Translations under genes and position numbers: made by a program
Shown: in pieces, positions 17,901 to 59,800 of the stretch
Position numbering within the stretch: position 1 is the first letter of the stretch
Layout: every line of letters begins with the position of its first letter
Assembly (NCBI RefSeq): GCF_964355755.1
Contig: NC_092678.1
Span: 25,871,365-25,935,364 of the forward strand
DNA length: 64,000 nt
Direction of reading: 5' to 3'
DNA from: Antedon mediterranea
Lineage: Eukaryota > Animalia > Echinodermata
Notes under the pieces: generated by a model
The model's database searches: none
Told to the model about the DNA's origin: nothing
Seen by the model: the letters and a program-made list of their open reading frames with translations, nothing else

Positions 17901-20900
17901 TATAATTGACATTTAATAGCACATTGAAAAATAACTGAATGGATCCAAGCAAATATACTTTTTCATCTTGCTTTTTATATCACTTTTGAATGTTCACTAG
18001 GTTCATAATCAGGACTATAGCCAACATGATTGGTTGTCTGAATTGTTCATCCTCAGCACATATTGTATACTTTATATTAATTATATTTAAAACATCTTTG
18101 CCTCATCTGTTTTTAAGCTCTCACTACGGCCCTGATAAACCTGCATTAAAATTTGTCAGTCATTCCAGTGACTTAACATCATAACTGCATAGAAATGTCG
18201 ATGTTTATATAAGAAATACTTAGAATAAACACTTAGTTGTATGTCAGTCTTATTAATATAGTATGTCTGTCTACATACTTACATTGTATATATCTTGGCA
18301 ATTGAAGCGTTCTTAATAATGTTAGATAATTTCCGCACTTTACAAATTACTTGACACTTTGACCAGTTTTATTTTTGCTTTAATCAGCCAAAGAAAACAA
18401 TTATGTTTTATTTTGTTATTTTAGGATTCTGACTTCCTCTAATAAAGTTTGAGTGCTTAATTTAGTTAGGTGTTATTTTGTTTTAGTGCTCTACTAATTC
18501 AAACAAGAGTACACTAAATTGCCGAGCTCATTTTTAGTTCCTTCATTACTAACATAAAAACAATGTTCATCTTTTAATCATTCATTTTTAGTGCCTTCAT
18601 TACTAACATAATAACAATGTTCATCTTTTAATCATTCTATCTTTCGTTCATATTTTTCTTTCATTGCTAGTACTGATATTTTCATTATTTTGTATATTAA
18701 TACATTTTTTTTCTGGACTTTAAAAATATTTTCTTTTCAGATTCTACAGAGATTTGATTATGTATTTACAGGAATATTTACAATTGAAATCATGCTAAAG
18801 GTAATTATTACAAATAGACACTCAAATTATGCTAAAGGTAATTATTACAAATAGACACTCAAATCATGCTAAAGGTAATTATTACAAATAGACACTCAAA
18901 TCATGCTAAAGGTAATTATTACAAATAGACACTCAAATCATGCTAAAGGTAATTATTACAAATAGACACTCAAATTATGCTAAAGGTAATTATTACAAAT
19001 ATACACTCAAATTATGCTAAAGGTAATTATTACAAATAGACACTCAAATTATGCTAAAGGTAATTATTACAAATAGACACTCAAATTATGCTAAAGGTAA
19101 TTATTACAAATAGACACTCAAATCATGCTAAAGGTAATTATTACAAATAGACACTCAAATTATGCTAAAGGTAATTATTACAAATAGATACTCAAATTAT
19201 GCTAAAGGTAATTATTACAAATAGACACTCAAATTATGCTAAAGGTAATTATTACAAATAGACACTCAAATTATGCTAAAGGTAATTATTACAAATAGAC
19301 ACTCAAATTATGCTAAAAGTAATTATTACAAATAGACACTCAAATCATGCTAAAGGTAATTATTACAAATAGACACTCAAATTATGCTAAAGGTAATTAT
19401 TACAAATAGACACTCAAATCATGCTAAAGGTAATTATTACAAATAGACACTCAAATTATGCTAAAAGTAATTATTACAAATAGACACTCAAATCATGCTA
19501 AAGGTAATTATTACAAATAGACACTCAAATTATGCTAAAGGTAATTATTACAAATAGACACTCAAATCATGCTAAAGGTAATTATTACAAATAGACACTC
19601 AAATTATGCTAAAGGTAATTATTACAAATAGACACTCAAATCATGCTAAAGGTAATTATTACAAATAGACACTCAAATTGTAAGGGCCAACTAAGACATC
19701 GTTGTACGACTGACAAGTGTCTTGACTCGTCGGTGCTGGCCGAGTTGCAGCGCGGTGGGATGAGTTGTCTTGAGATAGCGTCAGGTGGTAGTTTTTAGGT
19801 TGTCGAAAGAACTTAAAACATGTTTATTTCCTCCAGACAAGACAACTCTTTGGACCTTGTCGTACGATGCTGTCTGAGTTGGCCTTAAGAAAGAGAACTC
19901 AACATGTCCCATGTCAGAGTAGGTTATTTCTGGTGTACCGTACAAAGAAATAGAAAACCTCATGTTGCCAATCTCTGGTATTTCTCTGTTTATCTTGCAG
20001 GTTGTAGCATATGGTTTAGTTGTACACAAAGGTGCCTTTTGTCGTAATTCTTTCAACCTGCTGGATTTGCTTGTTGTTACTGTATCCTACATTTCATATA
20101 TGTTAACGTAAGTCATTATTTTTAAACTGTTCAAATAAAATAGACTAGATTAAAATAATGATAATCTCTACAACATCAAGTAAAATATTTATGTTGCAAT
20201 TTATTGAAAATCAAAGCATTTGATTATTAAACATTTATTTTGAAACTAGATTAATTAGTGTGGAAACTCTTTAAAATGTTTTATTGTACAACAAGGCATC
20301 AAATGCGAAAGCAATCAAGCGTGAAATCCATCAGCTTTGAGTAGATTTAGTGATAGCAATTTCTTATTTTTGCGTATTTTCTTTTTCTTTATAAAAAATG
20401 TCTTTCTTTGATGCCTGTGTTGTGTGCAATTTCCTACAACATTGGAGTTGACATAGAGATAGTTGTTGGGAATTGGACATAGAGATAGTTGTAATTGGGG
20501 TTATTTTCATATTTTATCATGTCTATTAATTATACATCCTTCATCTATTTTGCTGCACTTTTAATATACCCATTTTTTATTTAACCTGATTGCATTATGC
20601 ACGCTATTTCTTCAATATTCTTTCTGTTTTTTCCCTTTTAAAAATATTATTTTAGTATGCGTACTACTTATAAAATTGAGTGAGTAATATTATATGCCTA
20701 TTAGTGAGTAATATTATATGCCTATTTAGTATGCTTGATCATACCGCATGCAATATGGACGTGTTTTCACAACACACATTTTACTAGAGATCACACTGTA
20801 CATGTTCTCAGATATCAGACTTTAAATGTCAACCGCCAAGAGCTGATCCAAGACAGTGGCACAAAGTGTTCATACCATAAATATACACAAGTTTAAGACT

Positions 20901-29900: not shown

Positions 29901-32900
29901 TGCAACAATTGATTTGCACAAACCCAAAGAAGCAGCAGCCGCCCAGTACAGTAATGGTATACTTAGCACTTGTTGTATGTGCATGTTTCACCATTTCATA
30001 TTATATTTATATAATAACTGTATTCATTGATATCCTGACTTGAATCCTAGTCTAAAGTATTTATGTGATGGTCATGTCATATTAAATTACTTTTTAAATG
30101 GTTTCCGATACATATTTTGATTGATTTTTTTAAAAGCAGACTTATTGAACCTTACATTTTAAAATGATATAATTGAATTAACAAGTGTATGTTGTATTAT
30201 GCATTTGTAGTTATTGTCATATAAATACTTTTCACTATGCAATTTAATTGAATCCAACTTCTTGGTAATGTTGAATTCCTGCTTTTAAATTAAAGTGACC
30301 ACAAACAAACTGTTCTTGTTTAAGATTCACTTGTTTAACATCATTTGATTTGGAATTCTTGGGTTTGAAGAATCTTGAAAATCAGTTTGATTTCAGATAT
30401 AATGTTAATTATTTAAATATTTCAAAAACATTGATAGTGTGATAAATTTCGCTTTACTTTTCTTCCCATTTCTACAGCCTGATAGTAACAGTAGAATAAG
30501 CATCAACTTTTTCCGTCTTTTTCGTGTGATGCGGTTGATAAAATTGTTGAGTAAAGGAGAAGGGATACGTACATTATTATGGACTTTTATCAAGTCATTC
30601 CAGGTATTACTTTATTATTTAAAGTTAATGATAAGTAAATGTACATTCTTATCTCATTGTTGGGTTTACAGCTTTAATATAAAATCCATAATATTTGTTA
30701 ATAAAAAGGAATAATTTTTTCTAGAAATAATTTTGATTAAAAATGTTGTTTTTTGTAGGCTCTGCCATACGTAGCCTTACTAATTGTAATGCTGTTCTTT
30801 ATATATGCTGTGATAGGGATGCAGGTAAGGAATTTTAAAGTTTACATTCAAAACACACAAGTTCAGTCAACATAATAATGCTCCCATAAAAGTTTATATT
30901 CATGGTATATTGATAATGTATGTTTGATGTTTTTTATTACTTTCATTTACTATTTTTAGATGTTTGGAAAAGTTGCTCAGATAGATGGACAAGAAATAAA
31001 CCAAAACAATAATTTCAAAACATTTCCAAATGCCCTTTTGGTGCTCTTTAGGTAAGTATGTGCATTACATGTAGCAGTGTATATCTATCAGTATGTGCAT
31101 TACATGTAGCAGTGTATATCTATCAACACTGTTGCATTTTGAATTTGCATTTAGTCTTTAGTTAGAATGGAACATAAAGGCTATATTTACGTACATTAGC
31201 TTCCTGGTCAGATTCTGACCACATTCACATTATATTGAATCAATTTGAATTTGGATTTGAATATACTAGTACAGACATGGTGACATTTAAACACATTTAA
31301 AAAACTAGTTAATTTGATAAATTTACTTGTTTGTATTCAGGTCAGCAACAGGTGAGGCATGGCAAGACGTAATGTTAGCCTGTATAAGTGCCAAATGCTA
31401 CGGAGAAGAAAGTGAAGACAAGAGTTGTGGCAGTCCAATCGCAGTTCCTTACTTCCTGTCTTTCTACGTTTTATGTTCATTTTTGGTAAGTGCTAAACAC
31501 CACTATTATAATTAAATTTATATGATTCAATTAGTATACTGTGCTTTCTTTGAAAATCAATACAAACATTCACTTATAGCATACTAAAATGGTACTATGA
31601 TTATAATGGTAACTATTAATAATTAGTGAACTGTATAACAAAACAGACAATACTAAAAACTATGTTATTTATAATTTAATCTTTTCTGTTTAGGTTATTA
31701 ATTTATTTGTAGCAGTAATTATGGATAATTTTGATTATTTAACAAGAGACTGGTCAATACTTGGACCACATCATCTTGAGGAGTTTGTAAGAATGTGGTC
31801 AGAATCTGACCCGGAAGCTACGTAAGTAAACTTAATTTGAACTGGACTTAGCACCTACTTTAGTACCATCTTAATTATGTTTCGTACTAACTCATAAGAA
31901 TAAACTCAATGTCTTGCCTGGACTTAGCACCTACATTAGTACCATCTTAATTATGTTTCGTACTAACTCATAAGAATAAACTCAATGTCTGGGCTGGACT
32001 TAGCACCTACATTAGTACCATCTTAATTATGTTTCGTACTAACTCATAAGAATAAACTCAATGTCTGGGCTGGACTTAGCACCTACATTAGTACCATCTT
32101 AATTATGTTTCGTACTAACTCATAAGACTAAACTCAATGTCTTGCCTGGACTTAGCACCTACATTAGTACCATCTTAATTATGTTTCGTACTAACTCATA
32201 AGACTAAACTCAATGTCTTGCCTGAACTTAGCACCTACATTAGTACCATCTTAATTATGTTTCGTACTAACTCATAAGATTAAACTCAATGTCTTGCCTG
32301 AACTTAGCACCTACATTAGTACCATCTTAATTATGTTTCGTACTAACTCATAAGACTAAACTCAATGTCTTGCCTGGACTTAGCACCTACATTAGTACCA
32401 TCTTAATTATGTTTCGTACTAACTCATAAGACTAAACTCAATGTCTTGCCTGGACTTAGCACCTACATTAGTACCATCTTAATTATGTTTCGTACTAACT
32501 CATAAGACTAAACTCAATGTCTGGGCTGGACTTAGCACCTACATTAGTACCATCTTAATTATGTTTCGTACTAACTCATAAGACTAAACTCAATGTCTGG
32601 GCTGAACTTAGAACCTACATTAGTACCATCTTAATTATGTTTCGTACTAACTCATAAGATTAAACTCAATGTCTTGCCTGGACTTAGCACCTACATTAGT
32701 ACCATCTTAATTATGTTTCGTACTAACTCAGTTGGTACATTAGTACCAACTGTTGGTATGATTTGATTCACTTGAATGTGTAGTACAGTATGCTTTTAAA
32801 TCAATAATTTAGTTTGCAAGACTTTGATACAAAATAATGTCTGTTTCTTTTAATAGGGGTAAGATAAAACATGTTGAAATTGTAGACATGTTGCGTCAGA

Positions 32901-35900
32901 TATCACCTCCTTTAGGGTTTGGCAAACTTTGTCCTTACCGAGTTGCATGCAAGGTGAGTGAATAGCCGTATCAATTGTCAATATATATATACTCAAGCAT
33001 GTAAAAAGAACATTTGATATCTAAATGAAATTGTGCCATTTACATGGTAAACTATATTTTAAATTAAGAAATTATAATAAAGGTGAAAAAGTGTCATACT
33101 AGATATTGAATGTTGAGTTATGGGACATAATGTAAATTATGCTAAAATTGATTGTAAATTTACTAAATTGTGTTTATTTACAGAGGTTAGTTACTATGAA
33201 CATGCCATTAAATAAAGATGGTACGGTGATGTTTAACGCGACCTTATTCGCTCTTGTGCGCACGTCACTAAAAATCAAGACGGAAGGAAATATTGATAAA
33301 GCTAACGAGGAACTGCGCACTGTGATAAAAAATCTGTGGAAGCGGACAAACTCCAAGTTAGATCAGGTGGTTCCACCAGCAGGAGGTACAGTCATTTTAT
33401 CCACGTTTGTAGTAAATGGTTTTGTGGATATTTTATTTTGTCTGTTTCAATTTACATTATTAAAATATAAATATCATTGTACATATAAATTGATAAAGAT
33501 TTGTGGTTTTTCTAGATGATGATGATGTGACTGTTGGGAAATTTTACGCAACGTTCCTGATACAGGATTATTTTAGACGTTTCAAAGCTCGGAAAAATGC
33601 AGAACACAAATCCGATCATGATGTGGCATCGCAAGCGCTACAGGTAAACAACTATACATGATCTAAATCGAAATAGGAATTTAAAGTTTACATTTTGATT
33701 ATACTGTACATGCGTCTGTTTATTTTGGTAGGCTGGCTTACTTAACTTACTGTACAATGTGTTTGTTTATGTTTGTAGGCCGGTTTACGCAACTTTCATG
33801 ATATTGGACCAGAGTTAAAGCGAGCAATATCTGGCAATCTAGAGCAGTTAGATGAAGATGAATCAATTGAAAATGAACAGCCATCTCACAGGGTAAACCA
33901 TAGTTACCCTACTCACGTAAATTCCCATTACATTACATTGAATAACTGCACGAAGGCTAACAAGTTTGATGTGCTGAGTTTGTCATCGGGGTTTTGTTTT
34001 TTTTTAATAAATTTAATTTAAGAAGTGACTTATTTAATCATACATTCATAATGGATTCGTAAAATGGAACATTTAGAAAACACATATTGATTGAAAATGG
34101 CTCCTAAGTTTGTTATGTTTTGTACACGCTAAAGACACTACAACAGTACACTTGTACAATAGACACGACTCAGTCAGGTGTGGATTCCAAGTGAACGAGG
34201 CATTTATTAACAACAGCCTATTATACTATTCTACCAATAATATCAATGCGCGTAGACCAATCACCCATGTCTTAATACACGACATTTCTCCCTTTTTAAT
34301 TTGGAAACCTATTTTCACATTTTATATATTTTTTTTTTACAGATTTTCAATACATTTTATTAAAATTAACAATACACCAAAATCTTAACGCAGAGCTTAT
34401 ACGCTGAATAGTCGAATGGATCAATGAACGTTAGTTATTAAATATGTACAACCAAACATAATACTACAGTAAATACTGCAAAGATGACTGTCTATAGAGT
34501 TATATTTTAAAATGACTACAAAGCAAATTCAATCATGCTGCATACAGACAATACTATAAAACATTATCATTCACTCTGGTTGACCTTCTTAACACACTTG
34601 GTTTAGTAGCAACATTACTTTTAACATTATCATTTATACAATTTTCTTTAGTCTGTTCAATAGCATCATTACTTTTAACATTATCATTTATACAATTGTC
34701 TTTAGTCTTTCTACTCAAAATTTCTTCTACTCTCTTATCTACATATTCCGTATCCATATCCTCCCCTTCTTTATTTTCAAAATCTACATTTACACCTCTA
34801 TCTTTAATTTGATCAACATGTCTTTTCCAAACCATTTTATTTCCAACATCAATTTTATAGTTTAGAGGACCTTCCTGGTTTACAACAACACCAGGAACCC
34901 ACTTAGTTTGTCCTATATAATTTCGCACATAAACCAAATCGTTTGTTTCGTATAAACGCAACTTTCGATCTCGTTTATGCATGGCTTTGTGTAAATTATT
35001 TCTCACAGAATCATTAATATTGGGTCGAAGGATATCTAATCTAGTTCTTATAGAACGGTTCATAAACAACTTTGCAGGCGTCTCTTTAGTCAATGAGTGT
35101 TCAGCATTTCTATAAGAAAGCAAAAACCTGTCTAATTTAGTTTGCGGATCACCTGAATCATTTCGAGCAGCCCTTAATCCTTGTTTTAACGATTGAACAA
35201 AACGCTCTGCTTGTCCATTCGTACTAGGATGATAAGGTGCAGATAATTTGTGACTAATACCATTCATAGCCATAAAACTCTTAAATTCCCCAGACGTAAA
35301 CTGTGGACCATTATCAGACACTAGAACTTGGGGCAAACCATTCCGGCTAAACAAAGTTCTCAATACCCCAATAGTTTTATGTGAAGTCGTAGATTGCATA
35401 ATAAAAACTTCGGGCCACTTTGAAAAAGCATCGACCACAATCAGATATGTAAGACCCTCAAAAGGACCCGCGAAATCTACATGTACACGTTCCCCTGGGT
35501 TAGAAACAGGTAACCAAGGATGCATAGGCGCAATGGTAGGATTATTTTGTATACGCTGACATGAGTCGCACTTTTTCGCAGTTTCCTCAATTTGCGCATC
35601 TAACAACGGCCACCAGAAATGAGAACGCGCTAACCCTTTCATTTTGACCACCCCAATATGGCCTACATGCAATTCCTCTAAAACCTGTTGTCGCAATTTT
35701 GGTGGAATTATTACCCGGACACCCCATAACAAACAACCCCCTTCAATAGTCAGTTCGTTTCGTCTGTTAAAGTAAGGTTTCAAACTCTCATCGCTTTGGG
35801 GCCAACTTCCATCCATAAGATAACGCATTACCCTAGATAATATTACATCTCTACGGGTATTATTTCTTATTTCGGCGCTAGTTACCGGAAGAATCTTACT

Positions 35901-38900
35901 AGAACCAATATGCGCAACCGAAATTTCGCTATGACGTGGGGGACCCTCAACCGGTAATCGGGATAAACAATCCGCGTTCGCATTTGCTTGACTGTTCCTA
36001 AATTTAATATTATAATCAAACCCAGACAAATAAAGAGCCCATCGCTGGATTCGCTCAGCAGCCAAAATTGGTAACCCTTTCTTCGGACCAAATATAGTAG
36101 TTAGGGGCTTGTTGTCGGTTATTAAAATAAACTTTCGGCCATAAATATAGGAATAAAACTTTTTGCAAGCATACACGATTGCCAAGGCTTCTCTTTCTAG
36201 TTGCGGATAATTTCTTTCGGTCTTATTCAATGAACGCGATGCAAATTTAATAGGTCTTTCTTTCCCATTAACCATGTGGGATAACACAGCGCCTACCCCT
36301 TCACCTGAAGCATCCGTAGCTACTGTTAAAGGTAAATTTGGATCATAGTGAACCAAAAACCCAGAATGTCTTAGCATTTCCTTAGATTTCACCCATGCAT
36401 TTCTAGCTAATTCTGTCCATTTAAATTCTCTACCCTTTTCTAACATACTAGTTAAAGGTGCTAATATTGTGGCTAATCGAGGTACAAATGAACGGTAATA
36501 ATTCACCATTCCCAGATACGATCTTAAAGTAGTAATGTCCGAAGGCAACGGCATTTGCAAAATATGATCAATTTTGTCTATGGATTTATGAACACCATGT
36601 TTATCAACACAATGTCCCAGATATTCAACAGACTGCTTCATAAATTCGCACTTTCCCCGTTTTAGTCTCAAGCCATAATCTTGCAAACGAACAAGGACCC
36701 TCTCTAAATTACCAATGTGCTCTTGATCGTCTTTCCCTGTGACCAAGATATCATCAAGGTACACTTGTACACCCGGGAGATCCTTCAAGATAACATTCAT
36801 TGCGTTTTGCCAAATTGCTGGGGCGGACGTTATACCAAAAACCAATCGATTTTGCTGAAACAAGCCCTTTTCAGTAATAATTGTGAGTACCTTTTTAGAC
36901 TCATCGGACAACTCCATCTGATTGTAGGCTTGTGCCAGATCTAATTTGGTAAAGGTTTCACCACCCGCAAGGTTAGACAAAATGTCGTCAACGTTAATGT
37001 TAGGTGGAGCAACAGATTGTAGCACTGGATTGATTGTGGGCTTATAATTTCCACATAATCTAACGGACCCATCCTTTTTCCGAACGGTTACTATACCACT
37101 GGCCCACTGAGTATGCGTCACTGGTGTCAGAACCCCAATGTTGACCAATCTATCTAACTCAGTATCAACGTCAGACCTTAAGGCATAAGGAACCCGGTAT
37201 GCTTTACTAACCATTGGCTTGGCATCTCCCTTAAGTAAAACATCAGCTTTAATATGCTTTAAAAGACCCAGTTCCTCTTTAAACAGACCCTCATGCTTAT
37301 CCAAGAGTTGTTTAAGAGCATCCCTACATTCCAATTTATTAACATAATTATTATGAAAACATTCTTGCCAATTTAACTTGATAACATTTAACCAGTCTCG
37401 CCCTAAAAGAGAATGCTTAGTATTAGTAACAACATACATGAATAAATAATGACATTGTGATTCATATACCACTTTAACACTGATTTTACCAAGGGGTTTT
37501 ACAATCTCCCCCGTAAAACTAGTAAATGTCCGAGAACTCCCTTGCAAACGTTTATACTTAAAATGTTCTTTATAAGTCTGTTCAGATATCAAAGTTACTG
37601 CAGAACCAGTGTCCAATTCAAACTGAAAGTTTCGGTCATCCACATTCATATTAACACAAATAGCATCTGATGATTTAGTTGTCGTAAAAATAGGCAAAGG
37701 TAATGTAGTTTCAATATCACTATCGCTGTCATCCATCTCTACCGTACGTACACCTTGTGACCTTTTGTAGCACACGCGACTGATATGTCCAACATTTTGA
37801 CACACGTTACACTTCTTGTCTTTAAACCAACAATTTTGTTGATCATGTGATTTTCTTCCACACCGGTTACACATCTTGAGTTCTTTATTCCGCTTTTTAT
37901 GTTTATCGTTATTACTTTTATACATATTCCTACGCTCACCACTTCCCTGTTTACCACCACTAGAGTATGTACCAATTTTATGAACCTCTATATTTATAGC
38001 AGACTCTCTCAGATACTTGGATTCATCCTTAGCACTTTCTCTCGCTAAAGCAACTTCTACTGCTTCATTAAAACTCAACGCAGCCACACCCGCCTTTTCC
38101 ATTAATTTCAATGACGTATTTTGGTCCCTCATCCCGCTTATGAATCTATCACGTAGTTGCTCGTCCAGCTTCTCGCCAAACTTGCAATTCAAACTTAAAT
38201 GTTTTAAAGCAACTATGTATTCAGAAGTCTTTTCATCGGGACGTTGATTACGCTGAATAAACTTATGTCTTTCGGCAATGGTAATTATCGGCTTAGTAAA
38301 ATGTTTCTTAAGTGTAGACTTTAATTCATCATATGGAATATCTTTTGGTGCCTTTGGGCTAACCAAATCCCTCAAAATACCGTAGTACTTACGACCTATT
38401 GCGTTCAGGAAAATGGCTGCTACCCTAGCTCCCACATTACCACGTGCATCAGCATCCGGCTCTCCATGTAAGACCAGTCCAATCGCCTCCACATAAATCT
38501 CAAACCGCTCCAAATAACAGTTAAAATTCTCGGCTTCATTATACTGCTCAAACATCGGCATATAGTGGTCTTTAACGGCCATCCTCGTCGCCAAATGTTA
38601 TGTTTTGTACACGCTAAAGACACTACAACAGTACACTTGTACAATAGACACGACTCAGTCAGGTGTGGATTCCAAGTGAACGAGGCATTTATTAACAACA
38701 GCCTATTATACTATTCTACCAATAATACCAATGCGCGTAGACCAATCACCCATGTCTTAATACACGACAAAGTTGTTGTGTGTTTCTTGCCATGAATAAT
38801 AAAGAATATTATTATTAAGTTGTTACATTCATAATGGATACGTAAAATGGAACATTTAGAAAACACATATTGATTGAAAATGGCTCCTAAGTTGTTGTGT

Positions 38901-41900
38901 GTTTCTTGCAGTGAATAATAAAAAATATAAATATAATAAAAATGTACTTTTAATTATTTAAGTTGATATTTAAATTGTTTTTCTTTTTTAATACAGAGGA
39001 GCCATTCTATTTTTGGAAATGTCCAAAACGGCTCAACAGGACGACGGCAGTCTGAGCCGTCACAAGGTTTGATGGCCAACAATCTGAGTGCTTCACCGTC
39101 TAACTCACACCGCGCCGTGTCACCTGCCACCTCTTTAAACATTTACCAGAATACATACGGTAGACGGTCACCGTATGAATTTGGTGGTGCACGTGTACAA
39201 CGACCCATCAATATGATTAATAACAAGATGCATAGTAACAGGTCTAGCAGATCTAGGTTGGTATTGTTTTTACTTAAGACAATAGTTCAACTATTAAAAT
39301 TGTCAATTTTAAAAACTAAGGTTATTAAACTGTGTAAACACCACACACCGTATGCATAAAAATGACAAAAGCCAGTGGATCAGTAGTGGATCAGTAGTGG
39401 ATCAGTAGTGGATCAGTAGTGGATCAGTAGTGGATCAGTAGTGGATCAGTAGTGGATCAGTAGTGGATCAGTAGTGGATCAGTAGCCTTCAACATAAAGT
39501 TTGCTACTAAATAGAAGAAAAAGAACAGAAAAGTTTCTCAATGTTCTCTTATCTAGAGATCTTATAAATATATATTGTGTAGAGATTATACTGTAATTCA
39601 ATTTATATTTCTGTTTATTTCTTCTGCACAATTGGAGCAGTCTTCGGGACATTTTTCAGCGGTATGTTTTTATTCATCATGCATCAAGCTCAATGCAATG
39701 CATGAAATAAGCTGTATACATACAGTGTTTTACCTTTGTATAGTCACATTCAGTCTGGGCACAAAATGACCAAAATATTACTTTAGTTGTATCATGCTCA
39801 GAGTCATTACTTGGGATTTCATTTGAGCATGGCAGTACGCTGGTCAAATTGCTACATTCACAAAGTTCATAATGACTGCTGCCATAATGCTATTTATTAT
39901 TTTGTAATTCACATACAGTTAATTAATTAATGTAAATATTTAATAATTTAAATATTTGGTTAATTGATGTCATTAATTTGTGTTTTTATTTCTGCATGTG
40001 TGAGAACAGGTTCAAAAGTGGGACGGATGTAATAATTCAATACCTCTTCATTTGAGGAATTTTGAGTTTATTTTCTTATTAACTCTGCATGTCACTTTTT
40101 GTTATGCACGCATTAAAATATTCACAGAATTCCACGAGAGTATATTTAAGTAGGGATCTATTAAGTAATGTAGTATTTGTTATTTAGAACATCTAATTGT
40201 CCATTGTTGTCCACTTTCAATGCAATAAAGTGCTCATTGACTGTAAGTGATACTCGAAAGTTTTGTCAATAATAAGGAATTGATTCCCTCTCATTCCCAC
40301 AGTCCCATGGGATTGTTATCCCATGGGACTGTTATCTCATCGCTGTGTATGTGAACACAAGGTCTTTGTGTAATCATGGAGAATGAGTATAATATCCCAT
40401 GTTATGATAACCTTTACTGTACTTGGATATGTTGTATTCTCATTTAGTTATGTTTGTACAATAATAACAATTTTTAAAATTCTGTAAGTGTATTATGGAA
40501 GTGTCTTATGTGCATATTGAATTATTTTTCTATTTTTATCAGTAAAATAGCAACAACATTTTCTGTCGAAAAAATCATTGAAAAAGTTTATAACACATTG
40601 TTATTTTTAAAATAGTATACCGGCTGAAGAAGAAGCAGAACCGTTAATGTCCAAGGAAGAAGATGATAGATCGCCTTCACCAGAACTTCCACAACGAGCA
40701 GAAAGTTGTTTCATCGATGAGAGGGCGGTGTCTCCTGTAGAGGAAGAAGATGACATGGAGTGTCGTCCATTGGTATTGCACCGAGGAGACATGTTGAGGG
40801 ATCTCAGGTTTGCTTATTTATTTTATCTTCTCAATTCAGCCAGAATTATTTTCATAGCAGTTTTATCTCTAGATATGTTATTTCCAACTTTTAGCTTTGA
40901 AATATTTTTCATGAAGAATAAAACTTTTTAAAAACTTTCTAATGACAAAAAATGTGCAATTTCCTACAATTTTTCTTTTAACAAACTTATTTTTGCTGAA
41001 ACTTTATTTTATTATATTTTAAAAAGATTATATGAATGTGTTTATTATAATGTATATGACCGTGTTCTATAGATACAATTTTACCAATAAGTATTGTATA
41101 ACAACATGTTGTGGTTGACTAATTATTAGTTCTGTGTATGTGTTGAAATGTTTCATAGTAAACTAAAGATTGTCGTCTCGTAAATTATCAACAAATGGGA
41201 AGGAAGTTTTGTACCATAGATGTTTTATATAAAGATGATCATTTTTTAAAATCCTGTCCCTCTTGATCTGATGATATTTTGTTGTAATGACATTATTTAA
41301 CCTGTGTCATTTTTTAATAATAATGAACAAATATTGTTCTGGTAATCAATTTTTATTATGAATAAACTTTAATTTCAAAGCCCATATGTCTTGATGTTTA
41401 CAATACTCCAATTTTGCATTAAAAGTATCTAAGGAGACAGCATGTGTAACTGATAACTTTATTTGTACAATATTTTATTACTACTCATAAAATATCTAAT
41501 AAGAATAGTTATATTGACTTTCAAGACACCATTATCCTCAATAAAATGTGGATTATACGGAAAAATATTGGAATTTTTATATTGACTCTAGACCGGTATT
41601 TAATAAGGCATTGACTGAAAAATGAATTAATTGAGTAAATTATTTCACCACAGTAAGTTTTGTAAGTAAGGTAAGTGATATATATGTGTAGTAGTACTAC
41701 TGTTGTAGTAAGTCTATCTTAGATGTTTTATTAACTAATTAGGATTGTGTGCACAATAATGACTAGAGGTCTTCACAACATGTAAAGTCAGATTGTCTGC
41801 CCCTAGTCGTCTTTTAAAAGCATTTTATAAGACACTCTATATTTTTACACCTTTTTTGAGACCTTGACAAAATCTATATCTATACCCAATAATGCTTTTA

Positions 41901-44900
41901 CTTTTCTTTGAAATAATCTTTATATAAATATTATTCATGTAGACATTTATTATTATGTGTAAGTTTCTTCTATTAATATCATTAACTTGTATAATAATTA
42001 TTCACTATAGTATTCATTGCATAGGCAATTATTAGTTTTACAATTTCTTTAATGTCCAATTGAAAGTAATCAGGCATAAAGGTATAGATTGATATGCGTG
42101 ACCGATCATGCGTGATTACACTTGACACCAAACGTATGGAGAATATACTTGGAACTTTAGCAGAAACGCAGAATCACTTTTCCATGATACACACACACAC
42201 ATATTAGTGTCTGTATCAGATACTATAACACGATTTAAAGCAAACAGATGATTTTTATAATGTTTCAAGTTTGTAATCATCAAAATTAATGCTTATGAGA
42301 GTTACTTTTTCTGATGTTATGTTTCGGAGGACAGTTCTTGTTGGATTTTTGTCACAATTTGTATCATAGAGATGTTCTAACAGTTGCCTGTGATAATTTG
42401 TATTGACTAGTAATTAAGCAGATTTCATACTAAGTTTCAACGGCTAAGCCAAGCTACTATAACATAATACAGACATTTGTTTAATTCAGAATTTAGACAT
42501 TGGTGTTCCAATACAATGGAGGACATTCCAGATGGAATACTTGTAAGTGAACTTAGAAATGCTTTGCAGAATTTTACCAAGTCAATACTGTTTTTGGAGA
42601 AAGAAGTTGAATTTTTACGTATGACTGTTTCTAAAACAGAGCGTGAAATGCGAGGGCGTTGTCTGGAATTGGAACACCATCTTGAGCAGTGGTTATGGAT
42701 GATGTCCGAGGAGACTTTAGTTTTTGTTGGCCTTGAAATCAATGATGACGGAATGGACATTGAAGACACACAAACAGTTATTATACATTTCATTCACAAA
42801 TACTTAAGTTTAGATCTGCAAATAAGTGAGTTAAAACGTGCATCCAGAATGCTAACATCTACTATTCACCCACCACCCATTCTAGTACAGTTTAATTGTG
42901 TGGAAGTCCAAGGACTTGTGTTTATGGCTGCAGCAGATTTGAACCACCCCATTTACAAAGTATTACATGTACCGGGTAAAATATGCCAGAATTGTATTAA
43001 GGAATCTAATGGATTTGGAACCGACTCAGTTGACGATGTGGAAGAAAATGATTCAGGGCTAACACAAGATATCAATTCAGAAGATGAAGATATCTCAATA
43101 AATAAAATTGATAGTTCTGGTGACCTGAGAGCAGAGAGTATCAAGGCTAAATGGAAAGGATATCCAACTGGTGACCTGAGAGCAGAGAATAGCAAGGCGA
43201 AATGGAAAGGATATCCAACTAGTGACCTCACAGTGGAAAGTAGCAAGCCTAAATGGACCGGATACCCAACTGGTGACCTCACAGCAGAGAGCAGCAAGCC
43301 TGAATGGACCGGATACCCAACTGGTGACCTCACAGCAGATAGCAGCAAGCCTGAATGGACCGGATACCCAAAACTTAGTAGGAACATGATTGTGGAAAAG
43401 TCTGACCTTTCACATAGCTGTACCTGGCCATCAATTAATAAGTCCAATGATAATGATGATATAAGTTGTAAAACACATGAGGATTTATCAAATGATGGAC
43501 ACGATATTTTCAATTTCACATCGACTGAAACATTTCGCAGCACACATTCTCGCAAAAGTCGTTCAGGAACCTTTTTTCATAAATTTATCAAGAGAGATAC
43601 CTCGAAAAATATTCGTCATAAATCTTCTCTACAAAAGCATTGTGAATTGAAGCTGAAACAAAACAGAGAATCATTGTAAGTGTCTTGAATGCACACAGCA
43701 GCGAATGATAAATTGTAATTCATTACTTCTTTTATTTGGTTGATTTTGTTTCCTTGCATTCCATGATACACAACTATCCCTATAGATACAATGAGCATTC
43801 ATTTGTAAGAATTATTGCTTGGAACTGATTTGATTATCAAGAGATAACAGCAGTCATAGAGTATTCCTGTGAACCAGACATTTTGCATTTGAAAAATCAA
43901 TACCAAAGAAAATGATCTCCCACTAAACTAATCCTTTGCCTTTAAATGGTATAGCATAAACTAATCCTTTGCCTTTAAATGGTATAGCATAAACTAATCC
44001 TTTGCCTTTAAATGGTATAGCATAAACTAATCCTTTGCCTTTAAATGGTATAGCATAAACGTTATAAATTATGCCTTTTATAAACAATATTCAGGGTATT
44101 CATTGGTTTGTTATAATTACCTTTAAGACAAAGGGTTTTCATTGTTTTAGAAAGTAACATTCATAAATTCAATAATAATACTTTTTATTTCAATAACATC
44201 TTTTATTTTGTATAATTTCAGAGGAGGAATTTCTCCAAGTGTATCACCACCTTGTAACTATGCCGACAGTTCAACAGACACGGCAACACCATCAGCAACA
44301 TCACCTTTACTGTCTGTTCAAGATTCAGTGACCCCATCTCCTGAACCCTCACCTTTACCATCTCCAGAGCCTTCTCCTGTGTTATCACGGAGGTCACTGA
44401 CCCCCAGTCACCTTTCCGCAGGAGCGAATCCAACAGCTACCCTGAACAATACAAGTCTTCCTGCTGATAACACAAGTTTTATTAGTACTGACAGTGATTC
44501 TTCATCCAAGAAAGGTGGACTTTTAGGCTGTGCTGGTAAAGTAGATGCACCAACCTTTCAACGTAAGGCATCTATGCCTGTGAATTTACCACAAAACCAG
44601 GTAATGATGACGATAGAAAAAATGAATAGGAATATTAAAATATTAAATATAAGATGATGATTATAATATTTTTTCTATTTCCATGCAGGCAATGGCTGTA
44701 GCTGGAACGGCATCAGGTGGACGACCAAAAAGTGAATCTAGTCATATATGGAGGACACCGCCCTCGTCTCCAGGCCGAGTCCGGGCTTCTTTCCACACTC
44801 CAGTGCCTCGTCCTAGTAGTGCTAATTTACATGGTAACAACTCCCCAAAGAGAAGGCAGAATTTCCGTCATTCCGTTGGGTGTCTGGACATGGCTCAAGA

Positions 44901-47900
44901 CCCGTCGGATGCTTTCTACAGAGAACTGACTAAACCAAAGCCTCGAACCCCATTATTACGCAAATCTTCATCAAAGCCAGAGGCCATTCTAAGTAGTACA
45001 GAAAATCTAGTAGCAAAGGTTAGCATCGAGAAATTACCGTGAACTACGGCAACATTTTGTTTTCTTATTTTAAACTTTTTAAAAATCTATGAAGAGTTTT
45101 CCATTTTGAATATTGATTGATTTGTTGAAAATATACAGAGCTAAATGATTTATTATTACTGATATTCAAACTAAACTCAAATTATCTAATATACTAGTTT
45201 TACGACCTCTGCAGGGAAAAATTTCATTTTAAAATTTTGTTTAGCAATATTGCTAATCAAACTGATTTTTTAGTCGAGAAACATAGTTTTGTATTGTATT
45301 TTTTGCTACACAATTTTAGAAATTTGTAGCAAAATGGTTGTTTTGTATAGCTTTTTGCTATGCTACACTGGCGAAATTATTGCCTGCTCTGTATGAAAAA
45401 GGTATTACTCTCAATTTAATGTGTACATTATTTTTAAATCAAATGCAGGACAATCTTGGAACTTGAGATATTTTTATTGTGATTGGTTAGTAAAGGTTGT
45501 GAATTATATTGACACGATTTCTAAACCATTTTCACTTTGATGTAGTGCAGTTTTCTTAATGATTGATTGTTGAGTTGTTGATCAATACATTTATTATTGC
45601 TTGTTGTTCATACTACTTATAACTATTAATATTTATAAATTAAATATAATCCAATGTCACAAAAGTAGCATGTCATTAACCTTTCTCCCTCCTCTGGGGT
45701 TGAGGCCTAATTTCTCAAGTATTTTAATAACTAATGGTACACCTCGCACCCTATCCCCATTTTGTCTCTTCTCAAGTGTTGATTGTTGGAAACACAACAT
45801 TAAAGACATTCTCAAGAGATTAGATACTGTGTTCATGTTCACAGTTGGGTAATTATGTGTTAATAGATAGAACATTATGGCTCCAAGGATGGTATACATG
45901 GCCCTTGAGCATTAATGTGTAACATGAATATAATAATGTGAAGATTATATTATATATTTAATTATGCCCAACAGAGTAAAAAAAAAACAACCAAAATAAC
46001 TAATTTACACACATTTTACATTACATTAACATTAGTAAACTAATTTTGCCCACAGATAGTAATATTGCAGTGTTGTTTACTTAGATGAGGTCTGACATTA
46101 GGAGTGGACCTGCACTTTTAATTACATTTTTAATAAGTTACATATCATTTTGGATTTACATATTTGTAATTGAAAACTAGAAATACTGTTTGCATAGTAA
46201 TATTTATCAAGGGAAATATATATTCAACAGAGTCTGATGTGTATATAGTTGTACACTAATATATATTCAACAGAGTCTGATGTGTATATAGTTGTACACT
46301 AATATATATTCAACAGAGTCTGATGTGTATATAGTTGTACACTAATATATATTCAACAGAGTCTGATGTGTATATAGTTGTACACTAATATATATTCAAC
46401 AGAGTCTGATGTGTATATAGTTGTACACTAATATATATTCAACAGAGTCTGATGTGTATATAGTTGTACACTAATATATATTCAACAGAGTCTGATGTGT
46501 ATATAGTTGTACACTAATATATATTCAACAGAGTCTGATGTGTATATAGTTGTACACTAATGGAATTAGAAGAACAGTAATTAAAATTATCTATACTAAT
46601 AAACTTAAAAATATAAATATTTATTTCTTATATGGTCTATTGGGAATAGAAGGTATGGAAAAGTGTTTCAAGAGGTACCCACTTCTGGATCATGGTTTAG
46701 GGTTAGGGTTAGGGAACTAACCCTAACCCACTTCTGGATCATGGTAAAGTGTTTCAAGAGGTACCCACTTCTGGATCATGGTTTTCTATTGGGCTATTTG
46801 CCAATTTTTTGATAATTAAATAGTGATTGAAAAACATAAATCAACAGCAAGGGGATTTTTAGAGAAATTGTATCACATGTCATTTTATTTTGAAAAATCT
46901 GTAACCTTTAAATTAAATTAGACACTAGCATTAAGCACTGCCTGATTAAACTTACTTATATTGATACCCATGTAAATGGGTATATTTAATGGGTATATTT
47001 AATGGGTATATTTAATGGGTATATTTAATTATTATGTCTGAATAATATATTGTGTCTATGCTGTTTTTTAGAATGCAAAAATTATCAATGAAATCAAAAT
47101 TATTTACATTTGGTTTTGTGCAATCCAGTCAGTAGCTTTTAAAATTATTTATCGCTTCCAACTGGTGGCCAGGCATTACTTAAATTTAGATTATCATTAT
47201 TGTTTTTAGCAGTGATATTGTAATAGGTTAGCCCACTAATGTGTTACTGACCAGGCTTCCACCAATCAATGACCAATGGCCAGCCAATCAGAGCTTGTTG
47301 AGATAGTTTCTATAGAAATTACTGTTCCTAAACTTTCCAACCAATAAGAGGTGTTTAAAGGTCATAAAAATACTCTTAGTAGGTTGGCTTGCAAGCTAGC
47401 CAATCAGAGCTTGTGGATAGGGTTCCTATAGCAACTACAGTGTCCAAACTGTCTAAGCAAGCTAGCCAATCAGAGCTTGTGGATAACTTCCCAACCAATC
47501 ATGAGTTATCAGTCATTTAGTGGATGAGTAGGCTAAGTTAGGTGTAGTAGGTTTTTGACTGTGCACCATGGAGTAAAGTTACTCCATGATTGCACAGATT
47601 TATTAACCATCCACTCCAGGTTTTGATTGAACTAACATCACACTTGACAGTGTTCACTCATGCATGTTAATAGTATTTGATTGTTCACAGTTTAAATTAA
47701 ATTTGGGTGGATGAGGTCGTGCTTTCATTATTTTCACTTTTCTCTGAATCATTCAGGGACAAGACATTTTTTAACGCATTTATTGATACATTGATTCGTA
47801 ACTGAAATAAAATCTATAATGTTCAGTTCTGTACATAAAAAGCTTGTCACTTTTTTGTTTCAGGCTTTATATGATGAAGGGATAGCACCATTAGTGGACC

Positions 47901-56697: not shown

Positions 56698-56852
56698 GCT
56701 TGACAAGACAAGAATTTTTGATTACAAAAAAAAATAAATGTTACATTATTGATTGTTTGGAACTGAGAATTTGAATATGATGTCACAGTCATAGGATTTA
56801 TTATGATTTATTTTTTTTTTTAATTTAAAGAATTGAATTTGATTCGTTCAAA

Positions 56853-59800
56853 ATGAGCCGCTTTGGAGTACCAGTTTTTCCATCAAGTAGGGACACTCCA
56901 TCTCAGGGATACAGTGGTCATATTCAAGAACATGTTCCAGATGAGTTACCACTGCCACCATATTCTACAAATGACAGAGGAATCTATAGACCAACTCACG
57001 ATAATAGATCTAGTTACAATAACAGATCTTATTATGATGTTGACAATTCTGTGCAGCGTCAATCAGCCAATCAGCAATCATCTAAACTTGGTAATTATCA
57101 ATCAAACCAACAAACACCGAGCAATGTTCATAACCATGTACCACCACCAACTTACCATTCACCAAAAAACTTCAATAGCCAGAGAATAAGACCTGAAGCA
57201 GTGAATGAAATCCGCAATCATAGAATTAGCCAAGCTGCATCTACTCTCCAATCACCAACTAAAGATAGTGGCAAACAAAGAATGAATTATGGAGCTGCTG
57301 ATAACAACCTGCATTCACCTACTAAGTATAGTAACCAGAATGTCAACCATGGATCAACTCTGCAATCAACAGTTGGACTTGGGAATCAACGGATTTACCA
57401 GTCAGATTCTGCTGGTAATCCTCAAAATGAACGGATTGATTATGGACCCACAAATTACTATCAATCCAAAAATAAATCTAATCAACAATCACCAACTCAA
57501 AGTGGTAGGGTTAATTATTTGGATGAACCCAACAACACCTTGGTTGGTAACAGTAGGATTAGCCATGCAATGTCAGGCAATGCTTATGCTCCAGCTGATG
57601 TCGGTAACCATGGGATTAGCCATGCAGTGGCAGGTAATCCTCAATCTCTAGCTGATGTTGGTAACCATAGGATTAGCCATGCAAAGGCAGCTAATGTTCA
57701 ATCTCCAGCTTATGCTAGTAACCATGGGATTAGCCAGGCAATGGCAGATATTGCTCATTCTCCAAATGAGGTTAGCAACCACAGGCTTAGCCATATGATG
57801 GCAGCTAATCCTCAATCTCTATCTGATGTCGGTAACCACAGGATTAACCATACAATAGCAGCAAATCCTCACTCTCTATCTGATGTCGGTAACCATAGAA
57901 TTAGCAATGCTCCAATGTATGCTAGTAACCATGGGATTAGAGATACAATGCCAGGTAATGATCATTCTCCAAACGAGGTTGGTAACCATAGGATTAGCCA
58001 TACAATTGGAGCCAGTGACCATTCTCCAAACGAGGTTGGTAACCGCAAGATAGGTCACACACCAGCAATCAGGCACCAATCATCAAAAAAGTTTGGTAGT
58101 CAGAAAAAGATAAATGGATATGCAGATAATCTCCAATCTCCTGGTGAGGTTGATAAACATGTTAAAAACCAGGCAGCTATTGCAACCCATATACCAGAGC
58201 AAGTTGCAAAAAACATGGATGGAGACGTAACTCATGACACAAAACCAAAAACACCGCCACAAGACACCCACCCATTTAGACTTCATAGGTCTTTACCTTT
58301 AAATGACACTGAAAGTACGCACCTGTTTACATTTTTGTTAAATCTGAACAATATTGATGGTCTACGAGAAACACCAGTAAGATCGTCAGTTGCCTCATAC
58401 CAAGGCCATAAATGGTATCTGACAACCGGCGTGTATTCAAACGATAATGGCGTGGAATTTCTAGGTGTATTCCTTTATTGGTTAACAACTCAGAACCATA
58501 ATGTGGGTGGTAATGAAGTGGAGATTAAGTGCCGAACAGATTATCGTATTATTGTTCGTAACGTCATCAATCCCGCAGAAAGTAAAATATCTGAAGGTGC
58601 TCAGATGGAGTACAGCCCTTCCATGACAACAGGATGGGGGAAGCGTGAATTGATAACGTTACATGAACTCTGTTCTCGTGGGAATGGTTTTATAAATGAA
58701 CCAGGGAGCTTAGTTATCGTTGAGTTAGCGATGAAGTCTTGTACAACTACTTTTGAACATCGCATAGATGTTTCACATCTCGGCACACAAACATTTCAAG
58801 ATCAGAGTCAATATCCAGCTCATTTCACCCCAAATTTTGCGCTTGGTGCTTATGAGTTCTATTTATCTGTTTACCCACGCGGTGATAGAGATAAAGCCAG
58901 AAATTGCGTGTCGATGTATCTTCATCGTTATTCAAGTTCCTCTGATCTTTTAGGCTGCAGAGTAAGATTTCGTTTTTTTGTTGGGAAGCGTGTTTCACCG
59001 TCAAGCGGTGCCTCATTTGATTACGTTTTCAAAGAAAACAAAGGATACGGTAAATACAAAGCATTTGAACCGCTTACTAATACTGATTTTATGAATCGGT
59101 CATCAATTTTGACTATTGGTGTAGATATTGTATCAATTACACCACTTGCTCAGGTTGAAGTACCTTTAGTTACAAGAGGTTATTACCATACTGACAACTT
59201 TGTGTTTGATGAGGTAGTCTTCCCTGACCATCTTTTTAACTATTGGAAGCTTTCTGTAGATAACAGCAACGCAATGCTTCAATTCAAGTTTGATACAGAG
59301 GATAAGGAAATGTTACAAACTACAGACAAGAGTTGCACCAAATTTTTACAATGGAGAGCGTTTGTCATTTCACGTAAAGATAAAAAGAAAAGTAAAGCAG
59401 TGCTGGCATGCCCTTTGACCTCATTCTTTTCAAGACATCTTTTTGATACTGAAATCACCATGTCCACTCAGATTCCATTGCAAACTGTAAGTATTATCAG
59501 TTTTTTTAATCATTAGTTTTAAATTAACTATGACTTGTCAGAATCAATGTAAATTTATAATAAAATATACAGCACTATTGAAGGTAGTCATGTGATGCAG
59601 TTTCAACCAATCACGTTCACGTATTTACATAGGCTATGTAATATACAGCACTGTTGAAGGAAACAAAGTGCTTACTATAGTATTTTGTTTTATAAATCAT
59701 AAATGGTGTACTAGTATAATATACAGCACTATTGAAGGTAACAAAGTGCTTACTATAGTATTTGTTTTATAAATCATAAATGGTGTACTAGTATACAAAT

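What the first reader, a model, noticed from the sequence alone, without database searches (positions are those of the whole stretch)
42473..43679. LINE ORF1p-like ORF inside a Cav1 intron that can splice in frame onto the channel
Seen: an uninterrupted ~400-codon sense ORF in intron 40808-44221, with no ORF2/RT, poly(A) tail or TSD visible nearby. It encodes a coiled coil, then [45 protein letters not shown], an acidic tract, five ~17-aa GYPT repeats and a basic tail. The frame opens after TAA 42465-42467, just before tacag| at 42472, and this acceptor is phase 2, matching the upstream Cav1 exon ending at 40807. There is also a Kozak ATG at 42516, a second acceptor at 42489 (phase 1) and a strong donor aag|gtaagt at 41671. 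Known: CR1/L2/L1 ORF1p is coiled coil + RRM, and L1TD1 is a domesticated example. Inference: a domesticated ORF1p-like module. It could be a nested gene, or an alternative last exon that replaces the distal regulatory domain and PDZ ligand of Cav1 with an oligomerising/RNA-binding-type domain.
Basis: partly seen in the sequence, partly recalled or inferred. Interest (0 to 1): 0.82.

Follow-up and report, generated by a model that had tools for sequence, protein, structure and literature searches.

The report
Retrotransposon-derived gene inside calcium-channel intron
An intact reading frame inside an intron of an L-type calcium-channel gene encodes a very diverged relative of the RNA-packaging protein of LINE jumping genes that has kept its folding core but lost most of its RNA-gripping residues, so it is likely a host-adopted nested gene, while splicing onto the channel is possible on paper but was not seen.

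Summary
The 403-codon ORF (42468-43679, ATG 42516) is real and lies in a Cav1 intron confirmed by a spliced contig. It derives from type II LINE ORF1p: a 136-sequence ORF1 profile scores its RRM at 26.1 bits against a maximum of 8.1 in 2000 shuffles. It keeps 18 of 18 hydrophobic core columns but only 2 of 11 basic columns, and the CTD is not detected. One DNA sample shows no second copy at 80% identity or more, whereas a neighbouring gypsy element shows many. No ORF2 remnant was found. In the one run with spliced RNA, Cav1 skips the whole intron and unspliced contigs cover the ORF and run through the proposed acceptors. The acceptor at 42472 is weak, and an in-frame acceptor arises by chance in 283 of 993 intron stretches. 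Best reading (0.5): a domesticated, stand-alone nested gene for a coiled-coil scaffold or decoy that no longer binds RNA like ORF1p. Rivals: selfish ORF1-only insert (0.25), Cav1 fusion exon (0.12). Vertebrate precedents exist (L1TD1, Lyosin, USP4-L1). No orthologue was found, so selection across species is untested.

The parts
42468..43679 (+). Open frame, 403 codons stop to stop; 387 aa from ATG 42516
42516..42518 (+). ATG with A at -3 and G at +4, five codons before the predicted coiled-coil helix
   Evidence: chance of such an ATG in frame in 25 codons about 0.024
42531..42704 (+). Predicted coiled-coil helix, residues 6-63
   Evidence: helix 6-63 in alignment-led model; best heptad register 12 of 17 a/d positions hydrophobic; coiled-coil profile 6.3 bits, 2 of 2000 shuffles reach it
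42705..42968 (+). [quoted passage not shown]
42969..43118 (+). Acidic linker where ORF1p has its CTD (13 D+E, 3 K+R in 50 aa)
   Evidence: CTD profile 0.3 bits, 86 of 2000 shuffles reach it
43117..43371 (+). Five 51-nt tandem units coding 17-aa GYPT repeats
   Evidence: adjacent units differ by 6 synonymous and 13 non-synonymous codons
43536..43676 (+). Basic C-terminal tail, residues 341-387
42180..42193 (.). Left copy of an exact 14-bp direct repeat (candidate target-site duplication)
   Evidence: 25 of 2000 block shuffles reach 14 bp
43759..43772 (.). Right copy of the 14-bp direct repeat; no poly(A) in front of it
42471..42472 (+). Candidate acceptor, phase 2, in frame with the Cav1 exon ending 40807; poor T tract
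   Evidence: bridged unspliced by X1 contig 42328-42672
42488..42489 (+). Candidate acceptor, phase 1; out of frame with the Cav1 exon
42495..42496 (+).
41671..41676 (+). Consensus-like donor site
   Evidence: bridged unspliced by X1 contig 41637-41956
40616..40807 (+). Cav1 exon upstream of the host intron (ends in phase 2)
44222..44600 (+). Cav1 exon downstream of the host intron
43707..43712 (+). GATAAA followed by a T-rich stretch: possible non-canonical poly(A) signal, use not shown
   Evidence: and the sequence

Best explanation
The intact frame is a very diverged LINE ORF1p derivative that likely works as a host-adopted, intronless gene nested in a Cav1 intron, predicted to be translated from its own ATG into a 387-residue coiled-coil + RRM protein that would act as an oligomerising scaffold or decoy rather than an RNA chaperone. 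Shown: the open frame, ORF1p type II homology, retention of the hydrophobic core, loss of most basic columns, no detectable CTD, one unbranched DNA contig over the domain region, Cav1 mRNA that skips the intron, and unspliced contigs over the ORF. Inferred: (1) a LINE ORF1, or an ORF1-only retroposed unit perhaps bounded by the 14-bp repeat, entered the intron; (2) selection kept the frame and the fold while the RNA-binding surface was lost and the CTD was replaced by an acidic linker, five repeats and a basic tail; (3) it is transcribed on the Cav1 strand as its own RNA; (4) the coiled coil oligomerises, as in ORF1p, so the protein would cluster its repeats and tail for a partner or co-assemble with ORF1p of active LINEs. 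The partner is not identified.
For: Homology: the alignment of 16 metagenome ORF1s (A1) finds human L1 ORF1p 2yko at E 1.5e-16. A1 versus the ORF gives hhalign probability 79%, E 1.6e-5. The 136-sequence HMM scores it 23.4 bits, best of 475 window ORFs (next 7.5); RRM alone 26.1 bits versus maximum 8.1 in 2000 shuffles. Constraint on the fold: 18 of 18 hydrophobic columns kept versus 19 of 60 other columns, Fisher p 8e-8, at only 21-28% identity to the eight best family hits, with no stop in 403 codons. Changed surface: 2 of 11 basic columns kept, members keep 6-11 (85 rows); K+R 4.9% versus family minimum 14.5%; net charge -8 versus minimum -1. Human ORF1p binds RNA in positively charged clefts between RRM and CTD (PMC5940361, passages). 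Not a young repeat: at 80% identity the bin 42688-43099 holds only the depth of one 1.5-kb contig in each of 3 DNA runs of one sample, while the gypsy element 5 kb upstream is laid about 5-10 times deeper than its flanks. Stand-alone start: strong-context ATG at the start of the coiled coil (chance 0.024) and 1 ATG in the 188 nt before it where 4.7 are expected (p 0.054). X1 contigs cover 42328-43281 and 43342-43666 without a splice.
Against: No orthologue: 0 hits among 1.84 billion representatives for residues 1-201, and none in two word searches of residues 1-170, so dN/dS and synteny are untested. An open frame and a conserved core also describe a transposon's own ORF1. Contigs give no strand, start, end or level, and other parts of this intron also carry X1 contigs (41401-41586, 41637-41956), so cover may be pre-mRNA or DNA. 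K+R depletion against random codons is modest (p 0.019 with the ORF's own composition, 0.079 with intron composition). Three of the 11 basic columns were fixed in the family by my seed pattern, and the ORF was itself in the alignment used for the core test. A perfect 14-bp duplication would imply a young insertion, which sits badly with a long residence here. The C-terminal tail has no coding-like GC pattern (0.33/0.39/0.29 by codon position). Of the two ORF alleles seen, one is non-synonymous. Reporter assays reported for L1TD1 and Lyosin did not show LINE suppression (PMC12129022 Discussion), which weakens the decoy option.
Confidence: 0.5

Rival explanations
1. Selfish, not domesticated: a fairly recent insertion of an ORF1-only (HAL1-like) element, or of the 5' part of a LINE from an unsampled, very divergent family. 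The frame is open because it was under selection in the element and has not yet decayed.
For: Exact 14-bp direct repeat bracketing a 1.58-kb unit of leader + ORF + short trailer; 25 of 2000 shuffles, and three other non-array places in the window, reach 14 bp. ORF1-only non-autonomous elements exist (HAL1; PMC5753468, passages). Young elements do sit in this gene (gypsy, LTRs 99% alike).
Against: No second contig at 80% identity or more on the domain region. No poly(A) or simple-repeat tail before the right copy. The acidic RRM and missing CTD are unlike all 85 ORF1 rows compared and are hard to square with RNA packaging.
Confidence: 0.25
2. Alternative last exon of Cav1: the phase-2 donor at 40807 (or 39256) splices to 42473 or 42497, so the channel keeps its IQ region but swaps roughly 345 distal residues, including the terminal VTTL, for the coiled coil + RRM module, which would cluster channels.
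For: Two in-frame acceptors. The frame is open 16 codons upstream of the ATG. The junction lies 224 residues after the IQ motif. Precedent: NUP42-L1 and USP4-L1 have ORF1p-like final coding exons, and Lyosin lacks the CTD (PMC12129022 sections 11 and 13).
Against: The X1 Cav1 contig joins 40807 to 44222 across the ORF, and another contig reads unspliced through all three acceptors. Acceptor 42472 has 5 T where true ones have 9-14, and 92% of 172 background AG sites have as many; 42496 lies 7 nt behind a competing out-of-frame AG. An in-phase YAG occurs in 283 of 993 random intron stretches. The ORF has its own strong ATG.
Confidence: 0.12
3. Relocated copy: an already domesticated ORF1p-derived gene elsewhere was retro-copied into this intron, and the parent is lost or less than 80% alike.
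For: Explains together a perfect 14-bp duplication, an intronless unit with leader and trailer, and deep protein divergence.
Against: No parent seen at 80%; no poly(A); the direct repeat may be chance (p about 0.01-0.02, looked for after the fact).
Confidence: 0.1
4. An old dead LINE fragment whose frame stayed open by chance.
For: Old fragments lack ORF2, tail and close copies, as here.
Against: About 75-80% protein divergence with no stop or frameshift in 403 codons (p about 1e-11 under base composition) and 18 of 18 core columns kept.
Confidence: 0.03

Closest known systems
Type II LINE ORF1p (coiled coil + RRM + CTD; human L1 ORF1p, PDB 2yko/2ykq/2w7a; found in L1, CR1, L2 and R1 clades; PMC4120745, passages)
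   Same: Coiled coil directly followed by the same RRM; profile and alignment-led structure matches.
   Different: No N-terminal region, no detectable CTD, junction motif and most basic residues lost, acidic RRM, added repeats and tail, no ORF2 found, no close copies seen.
L1TD1 (PMC4161310, passages)
   Same: Stand-alone ORF1p-derived coding sequence with an acidic low-complexity region; a dominant-negative role through the coiled coil was proposed for it.
   Different: L1TD1 has two ORF1p copies and keeps CTDs at 30-43% identity to L1 ORF1p; orthology and selection are shown for it and not here.
ORF1p fusion exons Lyosin (MYL4), L1-RFX5, NUP42-L1, USP4-L1 and the UNC13C exon (Kitao et al. 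2025, PMC12129022; abstract, passages, sections 11 and 13)
   Same: Intronic ORF1p-like CC + RRM; Lyosin lacks the CTD and probably lost RNA binding; NUP42-L1 and USP4-L1 are final coding exons, the arrangement proposed here.
   Different: Those are vertebrate, annotated spliced isoforms; here no splice into the ORF was seen, and the host would be an invertebrate ion channel. The word 'invertebrate' does not occur in that paper's main text; its supplements were not read.
HAL1 (half-L1) non-autonomous elements (PMC5753468, passages)
   Same: ORF1 without ORF2.
   Different: HAL1s are mammalian repeat families; this unit shows no second copy at 80% and no poly(A).
Baculovirus FP25K-like domain (PF25298, PF03258) and Transposase_22 (PF02994) clusters in the ESM Atlas
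   Same: Nearest named clusters by language-model features (scores 0.84-0.91).
   Different: Lead only; no alignment. That FP25K is related to ORF1p is recalled, not tested here.

Membership tests
Type II LINE ORF1p | RRM homologous to L1 ORF1p | tested here: met
   26.1 bits versus maximum 8.1 in 2000 shuffles; members score 53-118; hhalign E 1.6e-5; profile validated on 2yko
Type II LINE ORF1p | Coiled coil directly before the RRM | tested here: met
   helix 6-63 in the alignment-led model; heptad register; 2 of 2000 shuffles reach the score. Oligomer state not established.
Type II LINE ORF1p | C-terminal domain (CTD) | tested here: not met
   CTD profile 0.3 bits, 86 of 2000 shuffles reach it; acidic linker and repeats follow instead
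Type II LINE ORF1p | Basic RNA-binding surface | tested here: not met
   2 of 11 basic columns (members 6-11), net charge -8; binding itself not assayed
Autonomous LINE copy | Downstream endonuclease/RT ORF2 | tested here: not met
   no such ORF in 43680-44221; tblastn of 62 locus ORFs (6 endonuclease-like, 1 RT-like) gave no hit outside the ORF1 region. The query set is small, so old remnants could be missed.
Young retroelement (LINE or HAL1-like) | Dispersed near-identical copies | tested here: not met
   one contig's depth at 80% and 90% thresholds versus many contigs on the gypsy control; one DNA sample only; more diverged copies not testable
Young retroelement (LINE or HAL1-like) | Target-site duplication and 3' tail | tested here: inconclusive
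   14-bp repeat, p about 0.01-0.02; no poly(A)
Domesticated ORF1p gene (L1TD1 kind) | Intact frame, single copy, no ORF2 | tested here: met
Domesticated ORF1p gene (L1TD1 kind) | Own transcript | tested here: inconclusive
   unspliced X1 contigs cover the ORF, but strand, ends and level cannot be read from contigs
Domesticated ORF1p gene (L1TD1 kind) | Syntenic orthologues under purifying or positive selection | not testable with these tools
   no eukaryote genome held; no homologue
ORF1p fusion exon (Lyosin, USP4-L1 kind) | In-frame splice site | tested here: met
   42472 and 42496 are phase 2, but this is common by chance
ORF1p fusion exon (Lyosin, USP4-L1 kind) | Spliced host-ORF1 junction in RNA | tested here: inconclusive
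   the joints listed in X1 are the 7 canonical Cav1 ones; contigs drop rare forms; one run

The most novel reading that the evidence does not exclude
A Cav1 isoform ends in a domesticated LINE ORF1p module spliced through the acceptor at 42496 or 42472. It trades the distal C-terminus and PDZ-type end for a coiled coil that would cluster L-type channels: a retrotransposon protein fused to an ion channel in an invertebrate, alongside a free form from the ORF's own ATG.
Probability: 0.12. Interest if true: 0.8.

Novelty: new member of a known kind. Interest (0 to 1): 0.45.

Why it matters
Domesticated LINE ORF1p sequences are few, and those in the papers read here are vertebrate (L1TD1, Lyosin, RFX5, NUP42, USP4, UNC13C). 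Five searches listed no invertebrate case by title or abstract start. If selection is confirmed, this would be an independent invertebrate case with the same outcome as Lyosin (fold kept, CTD and RNA grip lost), suggesting hosts repeatedly recruit ORF1p for its coiled coil rather than for RNA binding. If the minor fusion exists, it would be a new way to cluster or retarget an L-type channel.

Tried and rejected
Pfam: no ORF1p family for the ORF or five sub-pieces; uninformative, since only 3 of 12 genuine ORF1s hit Transposase_22 at E 0.01 or better. PDB sequence search with the ORF alone: nothing significant. Homologue searches: 0 hits (residues 1-201, residues 1-170, 74 candidates of 212-678 aa, 98 candidates of 679-2000 aa, weak, and Cav1 fusions above 2000 aa were out of range). 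The repeats and tail were searched only in Pfam and viral contigs (nothing). Single-sequence AlphaFold: pLDDT 36.7, unusable. The alignment-led model (pLDDT 83.9) ranks human L1 ORF1p first in Foldseek (ranks 1-10, best E 2.8e-4) and VIA-align (Z 8.0, rmsd 7.3, 125 aligned; Z 7.8, rmsd 3.5, 85 aligned; first unrelated row 5.9), but the alignment was of ORF1 proteins, so I do not count it as independent. Three-copy complex prediction: 'no answer', score 0.25, mark 0.32, alignment not used; not evidence either way. Run search: no RNA holder on record; X1 is a guess, though it holds 7 GT..AG joints. No joint 40807>42473, 40807>42497 or 41670>42490 is listed; contigs show presence, not absence. 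X1 cover stops at 43666 and summed contig depth is about 6.5-7.5 over the ORF against 0-4.8 in nearby intron bins; contig depth cannot rank parts, so this is not used as evidence. An X1 contig with a loose end at 43461 appears only at the 80% threshold; treated as a short chance match. An RhxxhE-type trimer motif at residue 48 arises in 1253 of 10000 shuffles; rejected. Repeat units show no synonymous excess worth citing. No terminal inverted repeat at the ends of the 1.58-kb unit. Motif scan of viral contigs: 0. Earlier-findings look-ups by sequence, by one word set, near and in-genome for ORF1p: nothing. Of the 27 motif loci, 16 went into A1; 7 near-duplicates of L002 and 4 short or broken ones were left out.

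Full report
Observation. The window holds the 3' part of a Cav1 gene: the IQ family matches at 33136-33516 (E 2e-15) and a weak CAC1F_C match lies in the last exon, which ends in VTTL. Run X1 contains a contig with seven GT..AG joints, one of which removes 40808-44221. In that intron lies a sense frame of 403 codons, 42468-43679; its 318 non-repeat codons would be stop-free by chance at about 1e-11.

What the protein is. Direct searches found nothing. The ESM Atlas pointed to FP25K-like and Transposase_22 clusters, a lead only. I therefore built a family from data: a pattern from a recalled ORF1p motif gave 27 metagenome loci, 16 of which were aligned (A1). Among 62 long ORFs in these loci, 6 look endonuclease-like and 1 RT-like by motif. 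A1 finds human L1 ORF1p at E 1.5e-16, so it is the type II ORF1p family (PMC4120745, passages). Only 3 of 12 members hit Pfam Transposase_22, so the Pfam blank for our ORF means little. A1 against the ORF gives 79% probability, E 1.6e-5. With 120 further relatives (the best 120 of 771), the 136-sequence profile scores the ORF 23.4 bits, best of 475 window ORFs. The RRM alone scores 26.1 bits; the best of 2000 shuffles scores 8.1 and members score 53-118. The CTD profile scores 0.3 bits. [quoted passage not shown]

How it has changed. Identity to the eight best family hits is 21-28%. All 18 hydrophobic core columns are kept, against 19 of 60 other columns; only 2 of 11 basic columns are kept, where 85 members keep 6 to 11. 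The RRM has 4.9% K+R (family minimum 14.5%) and net charge -8 (minimum -1). Caveats: three basic columns were fixed by my seed pattern, the ORF was part of that alignment, and the K+R shortfall against random codons is modest (p 0.019-0.079). In human ORF1p the RRM and CTD form positively charged RNA clefts on a coiled-coil trimer (PMC5940361, passages), so I infer that ORF1p-style RNA binding is lost. Lyosin is described as lacking the CTD while keeping a conserved RRM (PMC12129022, Discussion). An acidic linker, five 17-residue repeats and a basic tail follow; the tail could bind nucleic acid in another way, untested.

Is it a repeat? In three DNA runs of one sample, laid at 80% identity, the domain region carries the depth of a single 1.5-kb contig (41781-43281), while the gypsy element at 34111-38769 is laid about 5-10 times deeper than its flanks. 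That sample may be the source of the window. No ORF2 remnant was found with a small query set. An exact 14-bp direct repeat (42180-42193, 43759-43772) brackets the leader, ORF and an 80-nt trailer; 25 of 2000 shuffles and three other non-array places in the window reach that length. If it is a target duplication the unit is young, yet no source copy and no poly(A) are seen. I leave it as inconclusive; it keeps the ORF1-only-element reading (HAL1, PMC5753468, passages) and the relocated-gene reading alive.

Nested gene or Cav1 exon? The ATG at 42516 has a strong context and sits five codons before the helix (chance about 0.024); the 188 nt before it hold 1 ATG where 4.7 are expected. X1 contigs cover 42328-43281 and 43342-43666; one bridges all three acceptors unspliced and another bridges the 41671 donor unspliced. 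The Cav1 contig skips the intron. Acceptor 42472 has 5 T in its tract against 9-14 for seven real acceptors; a third acceptor, 42496, is in frame with 10 T but lies 7 nt behind an out-of-frame AG. An in-phase YAG occurs in 283 of 993 random stretches. A fusion would join 224 residues after the IQ motif and drop at least 243 residues plus the last exon of about 100. It has vertebrate precedent in NUP42-L1 and USP4-L1 (PMC12129022 section 11), and one set of contigs cannot exclude a rare or tissue-limited form. Against the nested gene: contigs give no strand, ends or level, and other intron parts are also covered.

Mechanism. Most likely (0.5) a host-kept nested gene whose product oligomerises through the coiled coil and presents an acidic RRM, repeats and a basic tail, as a scaffold or as a decoy for LINE ORF1p. 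The decoy idea was proposed for L1TD1 (PMC4161310, passages), but reporter assays for L1TD1 and Lyosin were negative, so I favour a scaffold. Rivals: selfish ORF1-only insert 0.25, Cav1 last exon 0.12, relocated gene copy 0.10, chance-open fossil 0.03.

Novelty. A new member of a known kind. Searches (listings only) showed no invertebrate or calcium-channel case; the library lacks most subscription papers, and I read no supplements, where such cases could be listed. An earlier AI note reports a similar lone ORF1 in a Lar intron of another genome, so such solo ORFs may not be rare. Interest 0.45; it would rise with an orthologue or a junction read.

Noticed in passing
window 34111-38769, - strand: Young gypsy-type LTR retrotransposon in Cav1 intron 33917-38996: 174-nt LTRs 99% alike, 5-bp target duplication, intact 1347-aa gag-pol frame, several copies by contig depth, and covered by one 4087-nt contig in X1.
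   Followed up: partly
window 34041-34110 and 38824-38893; 38770-38815 and 38889-38934: Short host-sequence duplications (70 nt at 99%, 46 nt at 89%) around the gypsy insertion site.
   Followed up: no
window 56829-59516, + strand: 895-codon frame with in-frame 57-nt repeats (57546-58044) and two MATH_2 domains (E 1.5e-15), downstream of Cav1.
   Followed up: no
window 45210-45386: Very high-copy short interspersed repeat in a Cav1 intron.
   Followed up: no
window 33893-33916: The X1 Cav1 contig uses a donor after 33916; a GT with donor-like context lies about 23 nt earlier, a possible alternative 5' splice site.
   Followed up: no
window 43097-43102: A canonical AATAAA lies inside the ORF; the X1 contig 42658-43281 reads through it.
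   Followed up: partly
window 14630-16679, 18787-19679, 31842-32730 and others: Many long, nearly perfect minisatellite arrays in the Cav1 introns.
   Followed up: no
L002, L008, L022 and related loci: Type II ORF1s followed by endonuclease-like ORFs in metagenome contigs; most get no Pfam ORF1p hit, so Pfam misses much of this family.
   Followed up: partly
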